Positions 311-56,354 are shown, counted from the stretch's first letter. The stretch: 64,000 nt of DNA from a virus (IMGVR_UViG_3300010883_000017:9849-73848), one strand, 5' to 3'. Notes: generated from the letters alone by a model not told the origin. Numbers and translations are program-made.

Positions 311-902
311 GCGCCCTAAGTCAGCGCGCCTGCATAGCTTGTTACAGGAGTTGGATATCAAATCCTGGGACGTGCTCTTAATAGGGGATGGTTCCGGCAG
401 CGGCTGGGATATCGGGGTTGGTTGGTCGTGCGTAGTGATAGATCGATATACGAAGTCTCGGAAGCTAATACACGGCGGCGGTAGTACAGGAACTGTAAAT
501 ATCGCGGAGCTGATGGCCTACGTGCACGCCATGCTTTGGTACTCTACCCACATAGGCCGTGAGCTGCGCAAGCAATACCCTCGCAAGATTCTCAATATTC
601 ATGTAATCACGGATTCCCGTGTTATTGTGACCCAGGGCAAGAAGGTTGCAGAACGGAACACAGAAGGGCTGGCTAACCGCGCGTTGTGGGCATCCATCAG
701 CGATATCGCCCGCCAGGGTTACACATTCCACTGGCATTGGATCGCGCGGCTCACTAATGAATTGAACTGGGCGGCCGATCAGATGGCAGGCTCAGCCAGA
801 AAAGCTGTAAAAAATTGCATGCTTACTGAGGACGTGCCGGATGAGAACGGCAAGTATACGGGGGTGTCGATATACGACATCAACCCACTAATTAAAAAAT
901 GA
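231..902 (+). CDS. ribonuclease HI-like protein
   Basis: Acidic catalytic set in LIGDGS, NIAEL, ITDS and WAADQMA, plus HWHWI; the true start may be further downstream (~297). Confidence 0.75.
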   Translation: MPTRNFSRSTQNSSQKPRKVKRVKKSKRPKSARLHSLLQELDIKSWDVLLIGDGSGSGWDIGVGWSCVVIDRYTKSRKLIHGGGSTGTVNIAELMAYVHAMLWYSTHIGRELRKQYPRKILNIHVITDSRVIVTQGKKVAERNTEGLANRALWASISDIARQGYTFHWHWIARLTNELNWAADQMAGSARKAVKNCMLTEDVPDENGKYTGVSIYDINPLIKK

Positions 903-906
903 CCAA

Positions 907-1020
907 AGGTTAGCGAAGAATAGCAAAGTGAGGTTGCGGCTAGTTATGCGTGGGTGTGAAATTTCGTGCATTGTTTAGCAAGTGCCCCCGTTATGTAGAA
1001 ATATATACCGGGGGATTTTT
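907..1020 (+). ncRNA. pentamer-periodic guide-like RNA unit U1 (15 pentamers + GAAA hairpin 985-1014)
   Basis: aggtt agcga agaat agcaa agtga ggttg cggct agtta tgcgt gggtg tgaaa tttcg tgcat tgttt agcaa; G at position 2 in 14/15; hairpin followed by ATTTTTAATCCAAG. Confidence 0.8.
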
Positions 1021-1026
1021 AATCCA

Positions 1027-1084
1027 AGTGCAGTGAAGAGAGACTAGAAGTGCAAATCCAAGTAACACAAGGCAAAGTAGGACA
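1027..1084 (+). ncRNA. truncated/degenerate pentamer unit U2 (no terminal hairpin)
   Basis: Follows the ATCCAAG linker; agtgc agtga ... agtaa cacaa ggcaa agtag gacaa with one register slip; runs into the next ATG. Confidence 0.45.
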
Positions 1085-1633
1085 ATGAATATCTGCCATG
1101 AGCACGAGTTCATACTATGGGCACACCCGAGAACCGCAGCGCGTTTTGTATATTCTGCGCTGCGGAACCGCGGAAGCATGGGTCCTCTCACGCATCGAAC
1201 CGGTGTTCCGATAGACGGCGCTGGTTACAGTGTTGTTTGCACGGTGCGCAATCCCTATACGCGAATGCTATCTGCGTGGAAGTGGACGAATGCGGTGGGA
1301 AAGCAGCGGTACTCGCCGGAGAGTTTTACGGAGTTTGTAAGAAAGCACACGCCGTTATGGGGGTTACCGCCGATTTCAAAGGACCTGGGCCACAAGTTGA
1401 AGATGGTCAAATACTTTGTGCGCACAGAGTCGATTGAGAAAGACTTACGCGCACTCCCCTGGGTTCCGGACACACATTCGTTCCCCAAGAATACGTACTG
1501 TAGTAATTATAAGGGCTACACTCCGACCGCTTTGTATGACGAAGAAGCACAAGAGAAAGTTCGCCGGTTGTATTGCGGAGATTTTGCAGAGTTCGGATAC
1601 GATCCAGATGTGATTCCCGCAACGTTTTATTAA
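1085..1633 (+). CDS. sulfotransferase family 2 protein
   Basis: HPRTA (5'PSB-like), VRNPYTRMLSAW (3'PB), C-terminal DFAEFGY. Confidence 0.75.
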   Translation: MNICHEHEFILWAHPRTAARFVYSALRNRGSMGPLTHRTGVPIDGAGYSVVCTVRNPYTRMLSAWKWTNAVGKQRYSPESFTEFVRKHTPLWGLPPISKDLGHKLKMVKYFVRTESIEKDLRALPWVPDTHSFPKNTYCSNYKGYTPTALYDEEAQEKVRRLYCGDFAEFGYDPDVIPATFY

Positions 1634-1646
1634 CGAAAGAAGGACA

Positions 1647-1907
1647 ATGAGAGTAACGGAGATTTCTGTAGAAGTAGGCAGAACTGCCACCATTAATTAC
1701 CAGAGCGCGCGCAACTCAGTTGGTCTTACAGCCACCCTAGCGGCTGATGACCACGCGCCTACCGCGATCCGCTCGTTACAAAAGCAAGCCGTAGATATGC
1801 TTCTAGGTGACAACGAACAATTTCGGGACGCCGAAAATGTGACTTCTGTGGATGCGGAGAGCCTAGATGCGGCTATTCGTGCAGGGGCGGAGTCTCGCGA
1901 ACACTGA
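1647..1907 (+). CDS. hypothetical protein
   Basis: ORF with GAAGGA RBS. Confidence 0.6.
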   Translation: MRVTEISVEVGRTATINYQSARNSVGLTATLAADDHAPTAIRSLQKQAVDMLLGDNEQFRDAENVTSVDAESLDAAIRAGAESREH

Positions 1908-1931
1908 TTTACCGTGGGTAACGGGCAAATA

Positions 1932-2960
1932 CTTTGTTATCCATAACAGGATTTTTGATCTAAGTCGTGCCCCGTAGTGTGGAGAGGATCTAAGAGGACT
2001 ACCGCCGACAACAGGAAGTACGGTATGCATCCTTGGCGTGCAGAAATGTGCGCCAGGGGTTTTTTGATCTAAGGCCAGTCTTGAGGAACGAAGTTCGGGA
2101 AAGTCTCGATGAGTTTACTTGTGTACTGCCAATTTTAGTTCGCAATAGTGATGGAAAGCGGTGCGGATTTTAGCGCGGCGTAGTACAGTGCCCCCGCCAT
2201 GTGGAAACGCGTGGCGGGGGATTTTTGATCCAAGGGAAGAGGCGCAAAGGGGTACCAAGTTGAGCTCCGCATACAAACGCTTAGAACTCGGCAGTACAGC
2301 GAGGGATAGCGCTGCGCAGCGATGCGTAGACTAATGTAAGTAAGCATCCCTGTCGTATGGAAACATGCGCCAGGGATTTTTTGATCTAAGAAATAGCAAA
2401 GCAGCGTACGGGCATGATCACTCATAACAAGTCGAGCGCACTCTAGGTGTGTGCGGTATACAAGAGTAACAGCCCCCGTCATGTAGAAATGTGTGACGGG
2501 GGATTTTTGATCTAAGCCGGGTAGGGTAGAGGGATGCTCGGTAAATACCAGCCGGGACAAGTGTGGCCGTCAAGTGCGGGCTCAGTTAAGTTAGCGCTTC
2601 CGTCGTGCAGAAATGTGTGGCGGGGGATTTTTGATCCTAGGAAAGAGCCGTTGTGGCAAGTGGAGAGGAGCCCAGACCAGCATCGTATAGTAGCGCTCGG
2701 TCAAGCTCGGGATACCTTAGCCCGCGTAATCAGAGATGGTTGCGCGGGTATTTTTGGCCCCGTTCGTCTAGTGGACTAGGACACCGGCTTCTCAAGCCGG
2801 GAACAGGAGTTCAATTCTCCTACGGGGTACATTTTGATCCAAGTGGAGTCGATATTACCGGTGTATAGGGGAGGCTAGTCCTGCAACGAGCAGTTCTGCG
2901 TCGCTCAGATAACCAGACTAGTGGGCCCGGGCGTTCGTTACGGGCGCTCGGGCTCATTTA
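1932..2960 (+). repeat. array of seven pentamer-periodic guide-like RNA units (U3 1963, U4 2072, U5 2233, U6 2389, U7 2515, U8 2639, U9 2842) separated by hairpin + ATTTTTGATCYAAG repeats
   Basis: Hairpins at 2031-2058, 2191-2220, 2348-2375, 2473-2502, 2597-2626 and 2721-2748 (GAAA/GAGA loops) and 2922-2956, with compensatory changes and G-U pairs; intervening tracts have 5-nt periodicity. Not a CRISPR array. Confidence 0.88.
2757..2829 (+). tRNA. tRNA-Glu (anticodon CTC), no encoded CCA
   Basis: Acceptor GCCCCGT/ACGGGGT, anticodon arm CCGGC-TTCTCAA-GCCGG, T arm AGGAG-TTCAATT-CTCCT. Confidence 0.92.
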
Positions 2961-2997
2961 TTACGTGGCAAACTGGGTTCAAATAGGGAATGTAAAT

Positions 2998-4041
2998 ATG
3001 AAAAGCAGGAAGAAAAAAGTTAAGCAAAATACAAAGCGAAACGCGCCGAAAACATCAGTTTTGCGCCGCAAGAATACACGTTTAATGAGCAGGACTTCCG
3101 GAGGACGGCAGTCAGTTGTCGAAGCGCGTCTTGATAAAAAGGCCGATACAATTTTGGCCAAAGCAAAAATCATCAAGATAGCTGCGCAACCAACAAAGGT
3201 GTACCGCACTGTGAAAATTGACGATCTCCAGATCGACAACTCTTATCAGCGTCCGCTGAAAGAAGGTCATATTGCTGACATCATGATGTACTTCAATTGG
3301 GAGGGCTTCGGCACACCAGTTATAGGACGCCGTACTGGTGGCGGGCTATGGTTAATTGACGGGCAGCAGCGGATTACCGCAGCGCAGCGCTTGGGTGCTA
3401 CCAGCGTTGGCGCAGAGATCCGCGATTCTGTAGGGCCCAAATATGAAGCAAGTCTGTTTCATTTGTTGAACTCAACGAGCGTCGTCCCGACGAAGATGCA
3501 GATCTTCCGCGCGGCATTGCGCGCGGGTAATAAGAACGCCGTTGCTATCAATAAAGCAGTTAAAGAGGCGGGATTTCAAATCCATTTGAATGCGGTCAAT
3601 TATAGCGGCAGCGAGTGGCCGTATATTCGAGCACTCAGTCGTTTAGAAAAGCTGTTTAAGTACGGCGGCGTACAATTTCTTACGGAGGTGCTCTCGATAA
3701 TTAGTGAGACGTGGCCGGAAGAAGATGACGCAGTTCGCGAGGACGTTATCGGTGGAATGCACCGGTTTATTCGTTTTACTCGGTACAGTGATCCGCGCCC
3801 CAAGGGCTGGTTGCACGAGCTCATGCCCACAAGGGGGATGACGCGCCGCGATCGTATCGTAGAGGCGATTACGCAGAAGGGTCTGACTGCTGCAGGCTTA
3901 CATAACAAAGCTGCGAACAGCAAGGAATCGGCGTCTGGCTACAGCCGCGCCGAAGCTGTGCAGCGTATCTTGGACGAGACGTGCAGGTTTAATAGCCGCC
4001 GTAGAACGCCTAAAAGTACCGCTGCCGACGACATGGTTTAA
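2998..4041 (+). CDS. ParB/Srx-like N-terminal domain protein (DUF6551-like)
   Basis: LQIDNSYQRPL and LIDGQQR motifs; basic N-terminus. Confidence 0.7.
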   Translation: MKSRKKKVKQNTKRNAPKTSVLRRKNTRLMSRTSGGRQSVVEARLDKKADTILAKAKIIKIAAQPTKVYRTVKIDDLQIDNSYQRPLKEGHIADIMMYFNWEGFGTPVIGRRTGGGLWLIDGQQRITAAQRLGATSVGAEIRDSVGPKYEASLFHLLNSTSVVPTKMQIFRAALRAGNKNAVAINKAVKEAGFQIHLNAVNYSGSEWPYIRALSRLEKLFKYGGVQFLTEVLSIISETWPEEDDAVREDVIGGMHRFIRFTRYSDPRPKGWLHELMPTRGMTRRDRIVEAITQKGLTAAGLHNKAANSKESASGYSRAEAVQRILDETCRFNSRRRTPKSTAADDMV

Positions 4042-4096
4042 TACATGCGTATAAGCCCCCACACACACACTTTGCGTGTGTGCGGGGGTTGTTTAC

Positions 4097-4171
4097 TGCT
4101 CTGTGCTGCTGCGCGATACAAAGCGGAGCTGGGTCAAGCGGAGAAATGCCCGGGCCAGCATAGCAGAGTTT
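4097..4171 (+). ncRNA. pentamer-periodic guide-like RNA unit U10, directly upstream of the Cas7-like gene
   Basis: tgctc tgtgc tgctg cgcga tacaa agcgg agctg ggtca agcgg agaaa tgccc gggcc agcat agcag agttt; G at position 2 in 14/15; preceded by a CCCCC..CGGGGG hairpin (4056-4088). Confidence 0.82.
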
Positions 4172-4203
4172 TTGTTTTTGAAATTAAATGGAGGAATTTG
4201 AGT

Positions 4204-4998
4204 ATGCCAACCACAAAAAAGGCCCCTAAAAAGGCCACTAAAAAGAGAGGCGTTAAAGGAAATATGTCTGCGATGTTAGCAGAGATGCCAGACGACGCGC
4301 TTGCTACCATAGAAAAAGAGGGGGGAGACCTTCTCGACCTGGAGCTTATTGAGTTTCACTGGTTGGAGTGTGAAATCATCGGATCAAGTCCTTTGGTTAC
4401 TAATCGGTTCTCTGATGAGTCTTTGGATGCGATCGAGGGTAATCAGACCCAAGGAGCAACTGGTAAGAAGCTTAAGAAGCCCCCGCGACAACCTGAGAAG
4501 GAGTTTATGCAGGCTGCGCATATATGTAAGGGGAAAGCAGATCCTGCGCACCTTGAGAAGAACATCTATGGATTTCCCGCTGTCGCTTTGAAAAAGGCCA
4601 TGGCTAACGGGAACTACAGATACGGAGGCGCGAAGGATAAGGTGTCGCAGATGGGCGCATTTCATGTGCACGGCCCCTGGCACGGGCTGATCGAGGTGCA
4701 GGGGCTTGATGACAAGCCGTGTATCCCCTCGATGGGACGTGATATGGTCCAGCTTCCTAAGGGGCAGATTGCGTCTATCGCGTATAGACCATACTACTTC
4801 CCGTGGAAGATGAGCGTATTTATCCGGTATTGTCCGACCTTGATGTCCAAGGACGAGCTGATTCACGCCCTGTATATCGCAGGCAATTGCATCGGCATTG
4901 GTTCTTGGCGCACGGAAAAGAGCGGGGACAAGGGCTCGTTCGACGTCGGTGATATCAAGTACCACGGAAAAAACTTCCAAGCACCTCTGTGCTCGTAA
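4204..4998 (+). CDS. stand-alone Cas7/RAMP-like RNA-binding protein (Vipr-like candidate effector)
   Basis: GGAGG RBS; EIIGSSPLV strand, YGFPAVALKKA helix, RPYYFPW, and Gly-rich C-terminal loop AGNCIGIGSWRTEKSGDKGSFDV typical of Cas7-group RAMPs. Confidence 0.75.
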   Translation: MPTTKKAPKKATKKRGVKGNMSAMLAEMPDDALATIEKEGGDLLDLELIEFHWLECEIIGSSPLVTNRFSDESLDAIEGNQTQGATGKKLKKPPRQPEKEFMQAAHICKGKADPAHLEKNIYGFPAVALKKAMANGNYRYGGAKDKVSQMGAFHVHGPWHGLIEVQGLDDKPCIPSMGRDMVQLPKGQIASIAYRPYYFPWKMSVFIRYCPTLMSKDELIHALYIAGNCIGIGSWRTEKSGDKGSFDVGDIKYHGKNFQAPLCS

Positions 4999-5012
4999 AT
5001 AGTTAGTTACGC

Positions 5013-5058
5013 CCCCGGCCTCGTTGATTATGTCAGCGGGGCCGGGGTTATTTTTTTT
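5013..5058 (+). terminator. intrinsic terminator
   Basis: CCCCGGCCTCGTTGA/TCAGCGGGGCCGGGG stem followed by a T8 run. Confidence 0.8.
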
Positions 5059-5077
5059 GGCTTCTGGAGAAACAACA

Positions 5078-5329
5078 ATGTCAGATCCTACTGAAAGCAT
5101 TCGACGAGAAATGGTTGCTCACATTAATAACGAGCCGGCCACACGAGAGCAACTTGAAGAGCAGCACGGACGCGTATGGGATACCGCAGAAATGCAAAAA
5201 GACTTCGAGGTACTTGGTTTCATGGCACCGCTCGTGGTCGTTAAGAGAACCGAAGACGCCGTTCGCGGCGCGTTGGAATTCCAACATGCCCCGCGCTTCT
5301 ATTACGGCTTTACGGAATCACAGGGATAG
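5078..5329 (+). CDS. conserved hypothetical protein
   Basis: GGAG RBS; VWDT..DFEVLGFMAP..LEFQHAPRFYY resembles a small family I recall from Planctomycete genomes. Confidence 0.65.
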   Translation: MSDPTESIRREMVAHINNEPATREQLEEQHGRVWDTAEMQKDFEVLGFMAPLVVVKRTEDAVRGALEFQHAPRFYYGFTESQG

Positions 5330-5332
5330 CCT

Positions 5333-5971
5333 GTGCATATTGTCCACATCATCGCATCTGAAGGAGCAGATGCCGATGATGCCCGCCTGATGGCGGAAAA
5401 CGGGATAGAAGGCTACGGCAACGGAGACGTGTGGGATTGGTACGAGGTTGGAGGTCGCTGGGAGGGCTTTATCGGTGCCACTTATGGTGAAACTGGAGAA
5501 GAGCAAGTCCCGGGGGTAAACCAGCTTTGTTACGCAGAGAATCCCGAGTTATTTAACGAAACCATAGACAACGCGATCAGCGGTCGAAACGCTGAGTTAC
5601 TTGAGGCGTTACACGCCATCCGTGGTGACGTAATTAGTTCTGAGGTAGTTCCTGAGCACTTCATGGGCCTGCCCATAGATAATAAAGAAGCAGTGGCAAA
5701 AAGGGTATCAGAGCAAAATGTTGCACACAGCGCCGAGTGGCAGGCACTACTAGCCTGCAATACAGTGGCCGATCTGGACAAGATAAACGGCCAACACCAC
5801 CTGGTGTTTTACAAGGTTTACAAACTAATGAAGGGGGTGATGGGTCACTATGATTTTGACAGCCGCTTTTACGACGCAGACGCCGGTAGCACGGGCCGCT
5901 CGTACGTAGACGACCGGAAGGGGTGCGACCCGGATAAACAATGGATTACCGTTTTTGACCTACACAATTAA
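5333..5971 (+). CDS. hypothetical phage protein
   Basis: WDWYEVGGRW motif and terminal DLHN, a common phage family pattern. Confidence 0.65.
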   Translation: MHIVHIIASEGADADDARLMAENGIEGYGNGDVWDWYEVGGRWEGFIGATYGETGEEQVPGVNQLCYAENPELFNETIDNAISGRNAELLEALHAIRGDVISSEVVPEHFMGLPIDNKEAVAKRVSEQNVAHSAEWQALLACNTVADLDKINGQHHLVFYKVYKLMKGVMGHYDFDSRFYDADAGSTGRSYVDDRKGCDPDKQWITVFDLHN

Positions 5972-5981
5972 GGAGTTTTAA

Positions 5982-6224
5982 ATGGCAGTACAGGAGACCT
6001 TTAGTCTTACAGACATCTTTGATGAGGCGCAGCTCACCAGATTAATCACTCTTTGGAAGAAACCAGGCACCACCACCGAAGATATATGCACTAAAATAAT
6101 TGAGCCCAATATGGGTCAGATTAATGAAAAACTGAGCATACTTACAGATGGTAGGATGGCTGACAATTACCCACAGTACATTGCGTACTGTTGTGAATTT
6201 GCATTAAGGAAAACAGATAATTGA
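5982..6224 (+). CDS. hypothetical protein
   Basis: AGGAG RBS, operonic spacing. Confidence 0.6.
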   Translation: MAVQETFSLTDIFDEAQLTRLITLWKKPGTTTEDICTKIIEPNMGQINEKLSILTDGRMADNYPQYIAYCCEFALRKTDN

Positions 6225-6237
6225 AGGAGGTAGCTAT

Positions 6238-6834
6238 ATGGCGACCACGGAAACGGCACAAACCCCGGCGCTAGCCACGCCAGTTGAAGTTCGATTTAGA
6301 GCTGCAACAGGTTCGCGCTTTAATAAAGCAGATGCTGAACGAATTGGGCCCGAACTACTGCGGCTGAAGAAGCACCACGGAGTTCTTACCAAGGATCTAC
6401 TTGTACAAAAGGCGCAGAGCGCCCGCTCGATCTTGCATGCTGATTTTAATTGGGATGACGCAACAGCTGCGCATGCCCACCGATTGGAGCAAGCACGTTA
6501 CATACTGCGGTCCATCATGATTGTGTGGGATGAGAGCACACCTGATGGCGGTGTCGAGCAGGTGTCTACGCGCTTGTTCCACAGTGTCCGCGTGAACAGC
6601 GATGATGAGGATGCCCCAACAAACCGCGGTACCCGCAGTCAACGCGTACACGTCACGTTTCGAGATGTGGTTGAGAACCCGGAATACGCTCAACAGGTCA
6701 TCGATTCTATGGAACGAGCAGTAGTGCGGTTGGATGCACGATTTCGGTTTTATTTGGATAAAGTTCCAATGTTTGCCGAAAGGTACCAGGGACTTTTTGA
6801 CGAGATTACCGCCTTGGAAGATAACATAGACTAG
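6238..6834 (+). CDS. hypothetical protein, candidate accessory of the Cas7-like gene
   Basis: AGGAGG RBS; LHADFNWDDATAAHAHRLEQARYILRSI motif. Confidence 0.7.
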   Translation: MATTETAQTPALATPVEVRFRAATGSRFNKADAERIGPELLRLKKHHGVLTKDLLVQKAQSARSILHADFNWDDATAAHAHRLEQARYILRSIMIVWDESTPDGGVEQVSTRLFHSVRVNSDDEDAPTNRGTRSQRVHVTFRDVVENPEYAQQVIDSMERAVVRLDARFRFYLDKVPMFAERYQGLFDEITALEDNID

Positions 6835-48232: not shown

Positions 48233-48618
48233 TAGATGAAATGGACGGTGTGGAAGTTGCGGTGGACGAGCGTCCGCTTTACTACTTAGTGGTGTGTCCG
48301 GACACGGGGTCTCCAAGCGTAGAATTTTACGAAACACTAGACGGGCTAGCTACTAAGTTGATTGAGCTCCAAGATACTGAAGTTACCGTGATGCCTTTCT
48401 GCGGGCGGCGTTTGTATGTGTCAGAAGGTGAGCTGCGGTATCTATTGGACGATGGGCACGCAGATCCTATTCCTTTGTTTACAGTCCCGACGCCCAGCGA
48501 CGGCGACTGGAAGGGGACGGTCCGGTTTGGCGCAGACACGCCCGATCCAGGAATCGCACTAGGAACCCCCGCGGATATTGTTGAAGAAGAGTCCGAGGAA
48601 GAGGAAGAAGAGGACTAA
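48229..48618 (+). CDS. hypothetical acidic protein
   Basis: ATGA coupling; poly-Glu tail. Confidence 0.6.
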   Translation: MIDEMDGVEVAVDERPLYYLVVCPDTGSPSVEFYETLDGLATKLIELQDTEVTVMPFCGRRLYVSEGELRYLLDDGHADPIPLFTVPTPSDGDWKGTVRFGADTPDPGIALGTPADIVEEESEEEEEED

Positions 48619-51383: not shown

Positions 51384-52130
51384 CTCCTTGCTGAAGGGTG
51401 GTGGTGGGGAATCGGAAACCCGTACCCCTCGCCATCACCCACTTTTATACAACTGGCCTCGGAGGGTGTTTCGCCCTCCACGTGAAGAGGTAGTCGGACC
51501 AGGTCCTCACACGACCTCGCTCCGCGACGCCGCGCAGGACTTGGTCCTACGATCGGCATATTGAAAGCATGGAGGCGCCCTGATTCACCTAACAGTGATG
51601 AAGGGCGTCCCTGGTGCTTTCCACCCTACAAGCCCCGGAGAGGTCGCTCCTCCCACGCTCCGAAAGGCGGGCGTCCGGGCAAAGGCCGAGTGGCGGAACT
51701 GGCAGACGCTCAGGACTTAAAATCCTGTGTCCTCACGGACGTGCGGGTTCGAGTCCCGCCTCGGCTACCATAAACCTCCGGAGAGTGTTTCGCTCTCCAC
51801 GTGATGGGGGTTTCCCCGGGCCATCCGCTGGTTTCGCTACGCGAAAACGCAGCTACTGGCCCCGGGGACCAGGTGCGATTGGAGCATAAGGGGTGACGAG
51901 CCACAGCTATCGGGACATTAGTCCCGGGACGCCTAGGGTTCGTTGCCCCTAAATTGCTCCCTCCCATCACACACGAGGTTTCTGCGCAGCTTGTTCGCTG
52001 CGCTCACTGCGCTGCGACGCTGCAGCCGGAGCTGCCGGCCTTCCGCGGCATTCTAAGCATAAGGGACGGCGGAGTGCCGGGGACAGTCTCCTCGCGCATA
52101 AACCGCCGTCCCGGATTGCTTTCTTTCAAT
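51384..52130 (+). ncRNA. candidate large structured ncRNA surrounding tRNA-Leu
   Basis: Continuous succession of long stems, duplicated covarying hairpin, no convincing ORF. Confidence 0.55.
51684..51770 (+). tRNA. tRNA-Leu (anticodon TAA) with encoded CCA
   Basis: GGCCGAG/CTCGGCT acceptor, CAGGA-CTTAAAA-TCCTG, long variable arm, GCGGG-TTCGAGT-CCCGC. Confidence 0.95.
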
Positions 52131-55382: not shown

Positions 55383-56354
55383 ATGGCGAATGATGCGCTT
55401 GTTGTAACAGGGGGTGGCGTTGGCAATCTTATCCAAGCTACTCCTCTGCTTGTTGCCGCGGCACATTTGCATAACAGTCCTGTTGACGTCTGGCTAGCAG
55501 GTGACGCTCCCTGGCTGGCAGACATAGTACGCGGCCACGAGTCAGTCCGGCGCGTATCCCACGTCCGCGAGGAGGCGATGGGGCCCGTAACAAAGTACAC
55601 GGATGTGTACTACACCTTCCTTAGAAAAGGCGCAGAAGCGCGGAAGGTTCCTGCCACAAATTATCACGCAAGTTGGCACCCGCACTACCCGCGTCACGAG
55701 GCGGAGTGCGCAATGTCCGCTGTACGCGGCGCGGGTTATCACGGAGTTACGCCGCCGACATTTTGTTGTCACGATCTGTTTCCACGTGAGGTCCCCGCGG
55801 GAGTACTTGTGGGGCTTTCTACGGGGAGTAAGGTTGGAGAGCGGTGGAAGATAAAGCGTTATCCACCTGCGCGATATGCTGCTGTGTGCACGCTCATCCA
55901 CCAAGAATTTCCCTTTGTGAAGTTCGTACACGCAGGGGTTTCATCGGACGGGGCGATAGTTCACCCAGAGGTTACGGACTTTCGCGGGGTTGGTACTATA
56001 CGTGAGCAGTTTGGTTTGGTGCGGATGTGCACAGCGTTTATTAGTAATGATTCCGGACTTATGCATGCAGCAGCAGCGCAAGGCATCAAAACATTTGGTA
56101 TATTTGGTCCGACAAATCTATGGAAGAACCTTCCCGCGGAGAATACAACTCCAATTTGCTTAGCAGAGGGTGTTCTTTCGTGTATGCCTTGCCAGAAAGC
56201 GTCAGGGGGGCACGGGTTGGGTCTAAGGACGGACGGGAGCAAGTGCGCGCACGAGTGCATGGAGTTGCTTGCTCCGGAAGTTGTGGCGGCTCCAGTTATC
56301 TCTTTTTTGCGTGGTATATTTCATGAAGTTCACGATAGTGATGACAGTGTATGA
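55383..56354 (+). CDS. GT9 heptosyltransferase-like glycosyltransferase
   Basis: GVGNLIQATP, KRYP, SNDSGLMHAAAA, IFGPT. Confidence 0.85.
   Translation: MANDALVVTGGGVGNLIQATPLLVAAAHLHNSPVDVWLAGDAPWLADIVRGHESVRRVSHVREEAMGPVTKYTDVYYTFLRKGAEARKVPATNYHASWHPHYPRHEAECAMSAVRGAGYHGVTPPTFCCHDLFPREVPAGVLVGLSTGSKVGERWKIKRYPPARYAAVCTLIHQEFPFVKFVHAGVSSDGAIVHPEVTDFRGVGTIREQFGLVRMCTAFISNDSGLMHAAAAQGIKTFGIFGPTNLWKNLPAENTTPICLAEGVLSCMPCQKASGGHGLGLRTDGSKCAHECMELLAPEVVAAPVISFLRGIFHEVHDSDDSV

What the first reader, a model, noticed from the sequence alone, without database searches (positions are those of the whole stretch)
907..6834. Candidate RNA-guided system: 5-nt-periodic guide array + stand-alone Cas7-like protein, using a gapped, wobble-skipping code
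Seen: about ten non-coding units of ~12-24 pentamers, each a degenerate AGY triplet plus a variable NN. In six clean units G occupies pentamer position 2 in 89/109 cases, and in 14/15 for U10. Units are delimited by conserved hairpins, and U10 lies ~30 nt upstream of a Cas7/RAMP-like gene. No cas1/cas2/cas3 or CRISPR repeats are present. Concatenating only the NN as NNx-NNx gives recognisable conserved protein motifs in five units (separate findings). Inference: one RAMP subunit binds each pentamer, holds the triplet and presents two bases, so the target is read 2-on/1-off and ignores codon position 3. From memory this resembles the recently reported VIPR systems (GGY/NN repeats + Vipr). The AGY-like degenerate scaffold, multi-guide hairpin array, embedded tRNA and RM-motif targets may make it a distinct variant; novelty needs a literature check.
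Basis: partly seen in the sequence, partly recalled or inferred. Interest (0 to 1): 0.97.

Follow-up and report, generated by a model that had tools for sequence, protein, structure and literature searches.

The report
Phage VIPR guide array, AGY type
A marine phage carries a VIPR system, a CRISPR-like RNA-guided DNA silencer first described in 2026, and at least three of its guide RNAs spell the catalytic motifs of DNA methyltransferase genes, so it is a real but already known kind of system with an interesting set of targets.

Summary
Nine to ten non-coding units are built of 5-nt repeats with consensus A(54%) G(79%) Y(70%) N N. Most end in a conserved 13-bp GNRA hairpin plus a U-run. They flank a 264-aa stand-alone RAMP gene.

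That protein is a sequence homologue of the solved SUSP1 Vipr protein (profile E 1.3e-8) and folds like Cas7. The locus is therefore a member of the VIPR class, published in April 2026 in bioRxiv 10.64898/2026.04.26.720920, which already lists 'YNNNG' repeats. This scan has also noted VIPR on other DNA: 658 findings in at least 426 genomes.

What this analysis adds:
- **Scaffold change.** The A-for-G change at scaffold position 1 goes with loss of the two residues that read G1 in the cryo-EM structure (H17 to N67, D177 to S234). The same link holds across related loci.
- **Skip rule.** The 1-nt-skip rule holds for guide U10: 11/17 against 7-8 for other skips, and 0 of 200 shuffles reach 11.
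- **Targets.** Guides U10 and U7 read m5C methyltransferase motif IV in frame, and U3 reads type I HsdM motif IV. The proposed integrase (U1) and GHKL (U8) targets were not supported.
- **Array and partner gene.** A tRNA-Glu sits inside the array, also in one relative. A conserved partner gene lies at 6238-6834.

Verdict: new member of a known kind. Silencing of restriction-modification genes is an inference.

The parts
907..1028 (+). vrRNA U1: 15-16 AGY/NN pentamers (907-981/986), tail hairpin 985-1014, linker ATTTTTAATCCAAG
   Evidence: G at position 2 in 14/15; tail aligned with the others. Target unknown.
1029..1090 (+). U2: doubtful unit, weak periodicity, no tail, runs into ORF 1085-1633
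   Evidence: G at position 2 in 7/12
1935..1964 (+). Array leader: palindrome TGTTATCCATAACA plus the first TTTTGATCTAAG linker; also conserved in relative L003
1965..2060 (+). vrRNA Ua (degenerate scaffold, with an internal GATCTAAG) and tail hairpin 2029-2060
2072..2220 (+). vrRNA U3: 24 pentamers plus tail 2191-2220. The 3' half decodes, as reverse complement, to V.ANPPFS.DKW, which is HsdM motif IV.
2233..2376 (+). vrRNA U4: 23 pentamers plus tail 2347-2376; target unknown
2389..2502 (+). vrRNA U5: about 16 pentamers with a 1-nt phase slip, plus tail 2473-2502; target unknown
2515..2626 (+). vrRNA U6 plus tail 2597-2626. Six consecutive NN dinucleotides are shared with a guide of relative L003; target unknown.
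2639..2749 (+). vrRNA U7: 16 pentamers plus tail 2720-2749. Decodes to DLIIGGPPCQAF, which is m5C methyltransferase motif IV.
2757..2830 (+). tRNA-Glu(CUC) embedded between U7 and U8
   Evidence: ARAGORN; Rfam 59 bits; same arrangement in relative L007
2842..2955 (+). vrRNA U8 plus the closing GC-rich hairpin (about 2923-2955); target unknown
2998..4041 (+). ParB/Srx-fold DGQQR protein (DUF6551). Conserved between array and vipr only in the close clade; possible clade-specific accessory.
   Evidence: Pfam E 1.1e-10, PHROG ParB-like; synteny in L003-L006
4097..4171 (+). vrRNA U10 in the vipr leader, behind hairpin 4056-4088. Its 13 core pentamers (4102-4166) decode to LIGGFPCQPFS[HQ]A.
   Evidence: RNA-library contigs bridge it to vipr
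4204..4998 (+). vipr: 264-aa stand-alone RAMP
   Evidence: PDB 36pp 'SUSP1 Vipr protein' at E 3e-4 (single sequence) and 1.3e-8 (profile); Foldseek Cmr4/Csm3/type VII Cas7 at E 1e-6
5013..5047 (+). Intrinsic terminator after vipr
5078..6224 (+). Three small ORFs (5078-5329, 5333-5971, 5982-6224) conserved in the close clade; function unknown
6238..6834 (+). Conserved vipr partner (candidate vap), 198 aa, with an SPLH..F.WD..AA..HRL.QAR motif
   Evidence: Homologues lie directly downstream of vipr in 9 distant loci and in Mycobacterium phage Mattes; alignment A2

Best explanation
This is a phage-borne VIPR (Viral Interference Programmable Repeat) system. The + strand encodes about nine guide RNAs (vrRNAs). 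Each is a run of 13-24 pentamers, AGY as scaffold plus NN as information. In the array each guide is closed by a 13-bp GNRA hairpin and a U-run and separated from the next by UUUUUGAUCYA. One tRNA-Glu lies inside the array. One further guide (U10) sits in the leader of vipr. By homology with SUSP1 Vipr (inferred), one Vipr protomer binds each pentamer and buries A/G-G-Y. The NN pairs with DNA while every third target base is skipped, and the bound filament blocks transcription. The scaffold reads AGY rather than GGY because the two residues that read G1 in SUSP1 (H17, D177) are N67 and S234 here, while the G2 and Y3 contacts (R195, W235, R236) are kept. At least three guides are aimed at the catalytic motif IV of DNA methyltransferase genes: two at m5C enzymes and one at a type I HsdM. 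I infer that the phage shuts down modification or restriction-modification modules of its host or of rival mobile elements. Shown: periodicity, hairpin covariation, Vipr homology, skip-rule preference, in-frame motif matches. Inferred: RNP assembly, DNA binding, silencing, array processing, and the biological purpose. The confidence of 0.8 is for VIPR membership, the published mechanism and methyltransferase genes as the target family of three guides. VIPR membership alone I put at about 0.93. The purpose, host anti-restriction or conflict between mobile elements, stays open.
For: - Periodicity.
- Vipr homology: PDB 36pp_D 'SUSP1 Vipr protein', E 3e-4 with the single sequence and 1.3e-8 with the profile, across the thumb YRP and the G-loop GxGxWR.
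- Fold: Cmr4/Csm3/type VII Cas7, E 1e-6 to 1e-4, probability 1.0.
- Family size: 4,833 cluster representatives at E<=1e-3.
- Pentamer-G tracts lie beside vipr homologues in most related loci.
- Tail: 11/13 pairs with compensatory changes.
- A conserved downstream partner gene.
- No Cas1, no Cas2, no CRISPR repeats. No self-target above shuffles.
- Skip rule: in 15 m5C methyltransferase loci chosen only by Pfam, U10 scores 11/17 with a 1-nt skip against 7, 8 and 7 with 0, 2 and 3. Shuffled guides average 7.3 with a maximum of 9 (0/200 reach 11). The top 8 hits all lie on motif IV in frame.
- The 13-NN core of U10 has 2 exact matches in 596 Gb of genomes, both in frame on GGFPCQPFSHAG. A further hit in L135, a locus fetched for a different family (GHKL), scored 10/17.
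- The 11-NN core of U7 has 7 exact hits in IMG/VR, all on DLI[IM]GGPPCQA.
- The top hits of U3 (11, 10, 9, 9, 9 of 23) fall on V.ANPPF..[DK].W of HsdM genes; shuffles reach at most 10.
- G1 pocket: loci with S/A in the G-loop and N in beta-1 have G at position 1 in 0-20% of pentamers. Loci with D/E and H have G in 55-87%. Among 108 family representatives, H goes with D/E in 51 of 53, and S/A/C goes with N in 26 of 31. The residues are named in the cryo-EM paper.
- Contigs of two metatranscriptome libraries bridge the ParB end, U10 and the vipr start.
Against: - No experiment on this locus. Contigs from an RNA library can be DNA carry-over, and none covers the main array.
- Only 3 of about 9 guides have a supported target family. 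Exact cores of U1, U3, U6 and U8 gave no hit in IMG/VR.
- Matches to sampled methyltransferases are mostly 50-65% of NN, below the 80% the VIPR paper uses for natural targets. The real target genes and the host are therefore unknown, and broad silencing of many methyltransferases is not supported.
- U7 on the unbiased set is no higher than some shuffles (24/200 reach it), although its hits converge on the motif.
- U3 scores 11 with a 0-nt skip as well.
- U10 has no hairpin tail.
- The H17-to-N67 equivalence rests on a weak alignment segment plus motif conservation.
- The locus comparisons are not phylogenetically independent.
Confidence: 0.8

Rival explanations
1. Same VIPR machinery, but the methyltransferase guides serve conflict between mobile elements. 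They silence orphan or phage-borne methyltransferases of rival phages, plasmids or satellites, which then lose protection from host restriction. They do not act on the host's own restriction-modification systems.
For: Published natural VIPR targets are satellites, prophages and other VIPRs. All 7 exact hits of the U7 core are on viral contigs. m5C methyltransferases are common in phages.
Against: The U10 core has no exact hit in IMG/VR. It has two in bacterial genomes. One is the first gene of an operon of a methyltransferase, a 756-aa ORF and a DUF2357/PD-(D/E)XK nuclease. HsdM, the U3 target family, is mainly chromosomal.
Confidence: 0.35
2. The guides act on RNA rather than DNA. All three decoded guides are antisense to the coding strand, so they could bind the methyltransferase mRNAs.
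For: U3, U7 and U10 all read as the reverse complement of the coding strand.
Against: Three of three has a chance of 1 in 4 for either common orientation. SUSP1 VIPR binds double-stranded DNA and silences from either strand. Vipr here keeps the thumb and G-loop residues of the DNA-binding homologue.
Confidence: 0.07
3. U10 is not a trans-acting guide. It is a cis-regulatory leader on which Vipr polymerises to limit its own translation, and its match to a methyltransferase motif is incidental.
For: U10 lacks the hairpin tail. It ends 32 nt before the start codon. RNA-library contigs are continuous from U10 into vipr. A leader tract stands at the same place in L003/L004.
Against: Thirteen consecutive NN match m5C motif IV exactly, in frame, in two genomes, against about 3e-4 expected by my estimate. 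0/200 shuffles reach its score on unbiased loci. SUSP1 also has a functional vrRNA upstream of vipr. The two roles are compatible.
Confidence: 0.1
4. Not VIPR: an orphan Cas7 with a degenerate CRISPR-like mini-array, or an array of terminators and small RNAs with a chance 5-nt rhythm.
For: Interspaced 48-nt repeats at 124-161-nt spacing look like a CRISPR array at first glance. The best solved folds in the fold library, which reaches April 2026, are CRISPR Cas7 proteins.
Against: The 'spacers' themselves carry the 5-nt rhythm. The best PDB sequence hit is SUSP1 Vipr. The same rhythm accompanies homologues in many loci. There are no cas genes.
Confidence: 0.02

Closest known systems
VIPR systems (Vipr + vrRNA + vap), reference type II system of Escherichia phage SUSP1 (bioRxiv 10.64898/2026.04.26.720920; structures 10.64898/2026.04.26.720927, PDB 36pp; biology 10.64898/2026.10.15.759431)
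   Same: - Stand-alone RAMP homologous to SUSP1 Vipr.
- Guides made of pentamers with a 3-nt scaffold and 2 variable bases.
- A conserved 3' tail.
- One guide upstream of vipr plus an array.
- Phage-borne, with no cas genes.
- 1-nt-skip code with the skipped base on the codon wobble.
- No self-targeting.
- A small conserved partner gene.
   Different: - Scaffold is A>T>G>C, then G, then Y, instead of GGY. The paper's methods mention 'YNNNG' repeats without detail in the held text.
- The G1-reading residues are changed (H to N, D to S).
- The tail is a plain GNRA hairpin plus U-run, not a pseudoknot.
- A tRNA lies inside the array; the paper reports hammerhead-interspersed arrays.
- Vipr carries a 45-residue basic N-terminal extension.
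- A ParB/Srx DUF6551 gene lies between the array and vipr.
- The partner gene could not be equated with vap1-6.
- The decoded targets are DNA methyltransferase motifs, which the main texts of the three papers do not mention.
Class 1 CRISPR-Cas backbone proteins (Cas7 family: Csm3, Cmr4, type VII Cas7)
   Same: RRM/RAMP fold with thumb and G-loop (Foldseek E 1e-6, TM 0.4-0.55). Periodic base flipping along a guide.
   Different: No CRISPR repeats, Cas1/2, Cas5/6, large subunit or nuclease. The period is 5 nt with 3 bases hidden, against 6 nt with 1 flipped. Sequence identity is only 8-14%.
Vipr homologues in actinobacteriophages (Mycobacterium phage Mattes gp52, Gordonia phage ODay gp19)
   Same: Homologous Vipr (tblastn E 8e-6 and 5e-16). 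Pentamer arrays lie next to the gene. Mattes gp53 is a homologue of the partner gene 6238-6834.
   Different: They have the acidic G-loop residue and His in beta-1, and GGC scaffolds in overlapping (staggered) arrays. No hairpin-tailed units, no ParB-like gene.
Engineered polycistronic tRNA-guide RNA arrays (recalled from memory, not checked here)
   Same: A tRNA placed between guide RNAs would let RNase P and RNase Z release neighbouring guides.
   Different: Here it is natural, there is only one tRNA for about eight guides, and processing has not been shown.

Membership tests
VIPR | Vipr protein: stand-alone RAMP homologous to the characterised Vipr | tested here: met
   PDB 36pp_D SUSP1 Vipr, E 3e-4 (single sequence) and 1.3e-8 (profile); Cas7-like fold
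VIPR | vrRNA of tandem pentamers with a conserved trinucleotide and variable NN (GGY/NN 'or a related consensus') | tested here: met
   149 pentamers with A54 G79 Y70 N N, and a lag-5 z of 4.0. The consensus is NGY, listed as YNNNG in the paper's methods; strict GGY is not met.
VIPR | Invariable, structured 3' tail after the repeat tract | tested here: met
   13-bp GNRA hairpin with 11/13 covarying pairs. U10 lacks it.
VIPR | Target read with one skipped base per NN, the skip falling on the codon wobble | tested here: met
   U10 scores 11/17 at skip 1 against 7, 8 and 7 at other skips, with 0/200 shuffles; hits are in frame. Shown clearly for one guide. U7 and U3 are supportive only.
VIPR | Minimal locus without cas1/cas2 or a CRISPR array, mostly on viruses | tested here: met
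   The viral record is 73.8 kb; no Cas1 or Cas2; no CRISPR repeats. The record is about 35% complete, so absence applies to the held part only.
VIPR | Associated vap gene | tested here: inconclusive
   A conserved partner (6238-6834) follows vipr in many distant loci. Its fold has no clear match, only weak winged-helix hints at Z 5.5. Identity with vap1-6 cannot be checked because the supplementary tables are not held.
VIPR | No self-targeting by its own guides | tested here: met
   Best NN matches in the phage record are at the level of shuffled guides.
VIPR | vrRNAs expressed and co-purifying with Vipr; DNA binding and silencing | not testable with these tools
   Only contigs of two metatranscriptome libraries, over the ParB-like gene, U10 and vipr.
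CRISPR-Cas (class 1) | CRISPR repeat-spacer array with contiguous spacers, adaptation genes and a multi-subunit effector | tested here: not met

The most novel reading that the evidence does not exclude
The phage uses VIPR as RNA-guided anti-restriction. Guides are written against the most conserved catalytic motif of methyltransferase genes. A methyltransferase gene can be the first gene of its restriction-modification operon, as it is in the Marinicella locus L028. A Vipr roadblock there would silence the whole defence operon, and the wobble-skipping code would deny the host escape by synonymous mutation. Two side points would also be new. The specificity switch from GGY to AGY would be set by two pocket residues (His/Asp to Asn/Ser), which would give an orthogonal scaffold for engineering. 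A tRNA would serve as a natural processing element of a guide array.
Probability: 0.3. Interest if true: 0.72.

Novelty: new member of a known kind. Interest (0 to 1): 0.5.

Why it matters
VIPR is only months old in the literature, and its natural targets have so far been described as satellites, prophages and other VIPRs. This locus is a clean, well-delimited natural example from an uncultured marine phage with a non-GGY scaffold.

It offers a testable structural rule for which scaffold a Vipr accepts: two pocket residues co-vary with scaffold position 1.

It also adds evidence that phages point such guides at catalytic motifs of DNA methyltransferase and restriction-modification genes. Other reports of this scan reached a similar reading on other genomes, and a later check weakened one of them.

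If silencing of restriction-modification genes were shown, VIPR would join the list of phage counter-defence mechanisms.

Tried and rejected
- **U1 as N6_N4 methyltransferase** (my own idea): no signal in 30 loci.
- **U8 as a GHKL ATPase:** no signal in 29 loci, which were mostly MutL/HtpG, nor in three methyltransferase-linked GHKL genes.
- **Exact collection scans with no hit:** the full 17-NN U10 in genomes; the U10 core in IMG/VR; cores of U3, U1, U8 and U6 in IMG/VR. One search used a mistyped U1 pattern and is void.
- **U10 with up to 3 mismatches** in 401 genomes: none. The known 13/17 site has 4 base mismatches, so this test was too strict.
- **U7 in the two genomes that hold U10 matches:** none.
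- **Guides of relatives** (L003, L005, L007, L009, L012, L013, L022): none hits the fetched methyltransferase, integrase or GHKL loci above shuffles.
- **Other G-periodic tracts** (48505-48554, 51486-51550 on the minus strand, 56004-56053, and 6415-6479 of the record): they lie in long open frames and are taken as chance.
- **ParB-like gene as a universal vap:** absent next to vipr in phages Mattes and ODay.
- **Partner protein:** no Pfam or PADLOC family, no solved-sequence match and no clear fold match.
- **Promoters:** no sigma-70-like promoter in 850-5100, so how the array is transcribed is unknown.
- **RNA-library contigs** do not cover 1965-2955; this says nothing either way.
- **The paper's type tables and figures are not held,** so the VIPR type (I-VII) could not be assigned.

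Full report
**What is there.** The window is part of a single 73,848-bp viral record, which CheckV estimates at about 35% complete. It has 50.8% GC and occurs in several marine metagenomes. Between 907 and 4171 the + strand carries non-coding units with a strict 5-nt rhythm. In nine tracts put in register (149 pentamers), position 1 is A in 54% (T 21, G 15, C 9). Position 2 is G in 79%. Position 3 is C or T in 70%. Positions 4-5 are unbiased. The G-G autocorrelation over 1965-2925 peaks at lags 5 and 10 (z 4.0 and 3.9) and is depleted at lags 4, 6 and 11. Two coding controls show nothing at lag 5.

In the array each tract is followed by a conserved hairpin and by ATTTTTGATCYAAG. Nine such tails, seven from the window and two from relative L003, fold into one 13-bp stem with a GAAA/GAGA loop, and 11 of 13 pairs keep pairing through changes on both sides. 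The final AG of the linker is, in phase, the start of the first pentamer in U3, U4, U6, U7 and U8. U5 slips by one base (read directly). A tRNA-Glu(CUC) lies at 2757-2830 between U7 and U8. The same tRNA sits at the same place in the array of relative L007. There is no Cas1, no Cas2 and no CRISPR-type repeat other than the tail family.

**The protein.** ORF 4204-4998 (264 aa) has no Pfam family. Its best hit among solved structures is chain 36pp_D, 'SUSP1 Vipr protein', at E 3e-4 with the single sequence and 1.3e-8 with a profile of 13 homologues. The match runs over the YRP thumb motif and the GxGxWR glycine loop. An AlphaFold model (pLDDT 74) matches Cmr4, Csm3 and type VII Cas7 at E 1e-6 to 1e-4. 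The family is large: 4,833 representatives of 50%-identity clusters at E<=1e-3.

**The neighbourhood in relatives.** Homologues in 27 viral and metagenome loci are accompanied by G-periodic pentamer tracts next to the gene. The closest relatives (75-82% identity, L003-L006) are syntenic. They carry an RNase H-like gene, a sulfotransferase-like gene, a small ORF, the array, a ParB/Srx DUF6551 gene, a leader guide, vipr, three small ORFs and a homologue of 6238-6834. That last gene follows vipr directly in nine distant loci and in Mycobacterium phage Mattes (gp52/gp53). It is therefore the conserved partner, a candidate vap. Its fold has no clear match, only weak winged-helix hints.

**What it is.** VIPR systems were described in 2026. 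Vipr is an ancestral RAMP, and vrRNAs are 9-16 GGY/NN pentamers with a structured 3' tail. Targets are read with one skipped base per NN, the skip falling on codon wobbles. The systems occur mostly on phages, and seven types are known. The paper's methods note alternative repeats NNNGG, YNNNG and NNNNG. Every defining feature that could be tested here is met (see the membership table). This is a member of that class and, on the repeat form, of its YNNNG sort. The type number could not be assigned because the figures and tables are not held.

**Why AGY and not GGY.** The cryo-EM paper says G1 is read by H17 and D177, G2 by R138 and W178, and Y3 by a pocket that includes R179. In the HMMER alignments, R138, W178 and R179 correspond to R195, W235 and R236 here, all conserved in the family. 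D177 corresponds to S234 and H17 to N67. The H17 equivalence rests on the conserved G..P[LF]..[HN] strand motif and is the weaker step.

Across loci the protein and the RNA change together. Six loci with S or A in the loop have G at position 1 in 0-20% of pentamers (A 35-82%); Asn in the strand motif was read in three of them. Eight loci with D or E have G in 55-87%; His was read in six of them. This second group includes phages Mattes and ODay. Among 108 family representatives with both motifs readable, His goes with D/E in 51 of 53, and S/A/C goes with Asn in 26 of 31. These counts are not corrected for relatedness.

**The code and the targets.** I replaced each scaffold by one wildcard, as in the paper.
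- **U10.** As reverse complement it reads [KN]-L-[IM]-G-G-[FL]-P-C-[HQ]-P-[FL]-S-[HQ]-A. Its 13-NN core (26 fixed bases) has two exact matches in 596 Gb of genomes. My estimate for random sequence is about 3e-4. Both matches lie in frame on D.L.GGFPCQPFSHAG of m5C methyltransferases, in a Marinicella MAG and a Burkholderiales MAG. The 13 matched pentamers are contiguous (4102-4166). The mismatches are the three pentamers that abut the upstream hairpin and the last one, which runs into the U-rich stretch.
- **U10, context of the best match.** In the Marinicella locus the methyltransferase is followed by a 756-aa ORF and a DUF2357/PD-(D/E)XK nuclease, so it heads a restriction-modification-like operon.
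- **U7.** It reads D-L-I-I-G-G-P-P-C-Q-A-(F). Its 11-NN core has seven exact matches in IMG/VR, all on motif IV of m5C methyltransferases, at 11-12 of 15 NN.
- **Unbiased test.** In 15 m5C loci picked only by Pfam PF00145, U10 scores 11/17 with a 1-nt skip and 7, 8 and 7 with 0, 2 and 3. No shuffled guide in 200 exceeds 9. The eight best sites are all motif IV. U10 also found, at 10/17, an m5C gene in L135, a locus fetched for another family. U7's best sites also converge on the motif, but its score of 8/15 is reached by 24 of 200 shuffles.
- **U3.** Its 3' half reads A-V-T-A-N-P-P-F-S-I-D-K-W. In 28 HsdM loci its best sites (11, 10, 9, 9, 9 of 23) fall on V.ANPPF..[DK].W. Shuffles reach 10 at most.
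- **Own genome and relatives.** The phage record has no m5C methyltransferase and no self-target. Guides of relatives do not hit these families. Orthologous guides keep their NN while scaffold positions 1 and 3 drift, as seen in L006 against L009.

**What did not hold.** The recombinase reading of U1 and the GHKL reading of U8 were not supported. The targets of U1, Ua, U4, U5, U6 and U8 remain unknown. Matches to sampled methyltransferases are mostly well under the paper's 80% threshold. I therefore read each guide as aimed at one particular, unsampled gene at its most conserved motif, not as a broad panel. An earlier report of this scan made the broad claim on another genome and was later marked down, which made me more cautious.

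**Expression.** Contigs from two marine metatranscriptome libraries of different studies cover parts of the ParB-like gene. They also run from the ParB end across U10 into vipr (3761-4249 and 4048-4358). None covers the main array. This is a weak hint only.

**Verdict.** The system is a genuine VIPR system and so a new member of a known kind. The main texts of the three VIPR papers do not mention methyltransferase or restriction targets. This scan has noted similar target readings on other genomes. Silencing of restriction-modification genes is an inference.

Noticed in passing
window 4056-4088: The stem of the hairpin after the ParB-like gene contains a (CA)n run whose length differs by one CA unit between two RNA-library contigs.
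   Followed up: no
window 1021: Two DNA runs read G instead of A here, turning the odd linker TTTTAATCC into the consensus TTTTGATCC. This is strain variation at the conserved linker.
   Followed up: no
window 850-5100: No sigma-70-like promoter match at all, against 4.0 expected from shuffles, while terminator-like hairpins are enriched (15 against 4.4). Transcription signals of this phage are unknown.
   Followed up: no
L163, L166, L169 with L135, L145, L131: In three of 41 sampled genomes of the class holding the Marinicella genome G001, an m5C methyltransferase gene lies close to a GHKL (HATPase_c_3) ATPase gene: within about 120 bases in two genomes and about 1.7 kb away in the third. This looks like a recurrent methyltransferase-linked defence module.
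   Followed up: partly
L030 2543-2800 (Mycobacterium phage Mattes) and L031 3577-3785 (Gordonia phage ODay): Overlapping (staggered) GGC/NN pentamer arrays lie directly beside unannotated 'hypothetical' Vipr homologues in well-known actinobacteriophages.
   Followed up: partly
L003 5210-5827: A relative has an extra gene with a LuxR/sigma-70 region 4-like helix-turn-helix inserted between the ParB-like gene and the leader guide. It is absent from the window.
   Followed up: no
window 4204-4340: Vipr here has a lysine-rich, disordered N-terminal extension of about 45 residues that the 202-aa SUSP1 Vipr chain is too short to carry.
   Followed up: no
window 1085-1633: A sulfotransferase-like ORF (Pfam Sulfotransfer_2, just below cut-off) sits between U1/U2 and the main array and is conserved in L003.
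   Followed up: no
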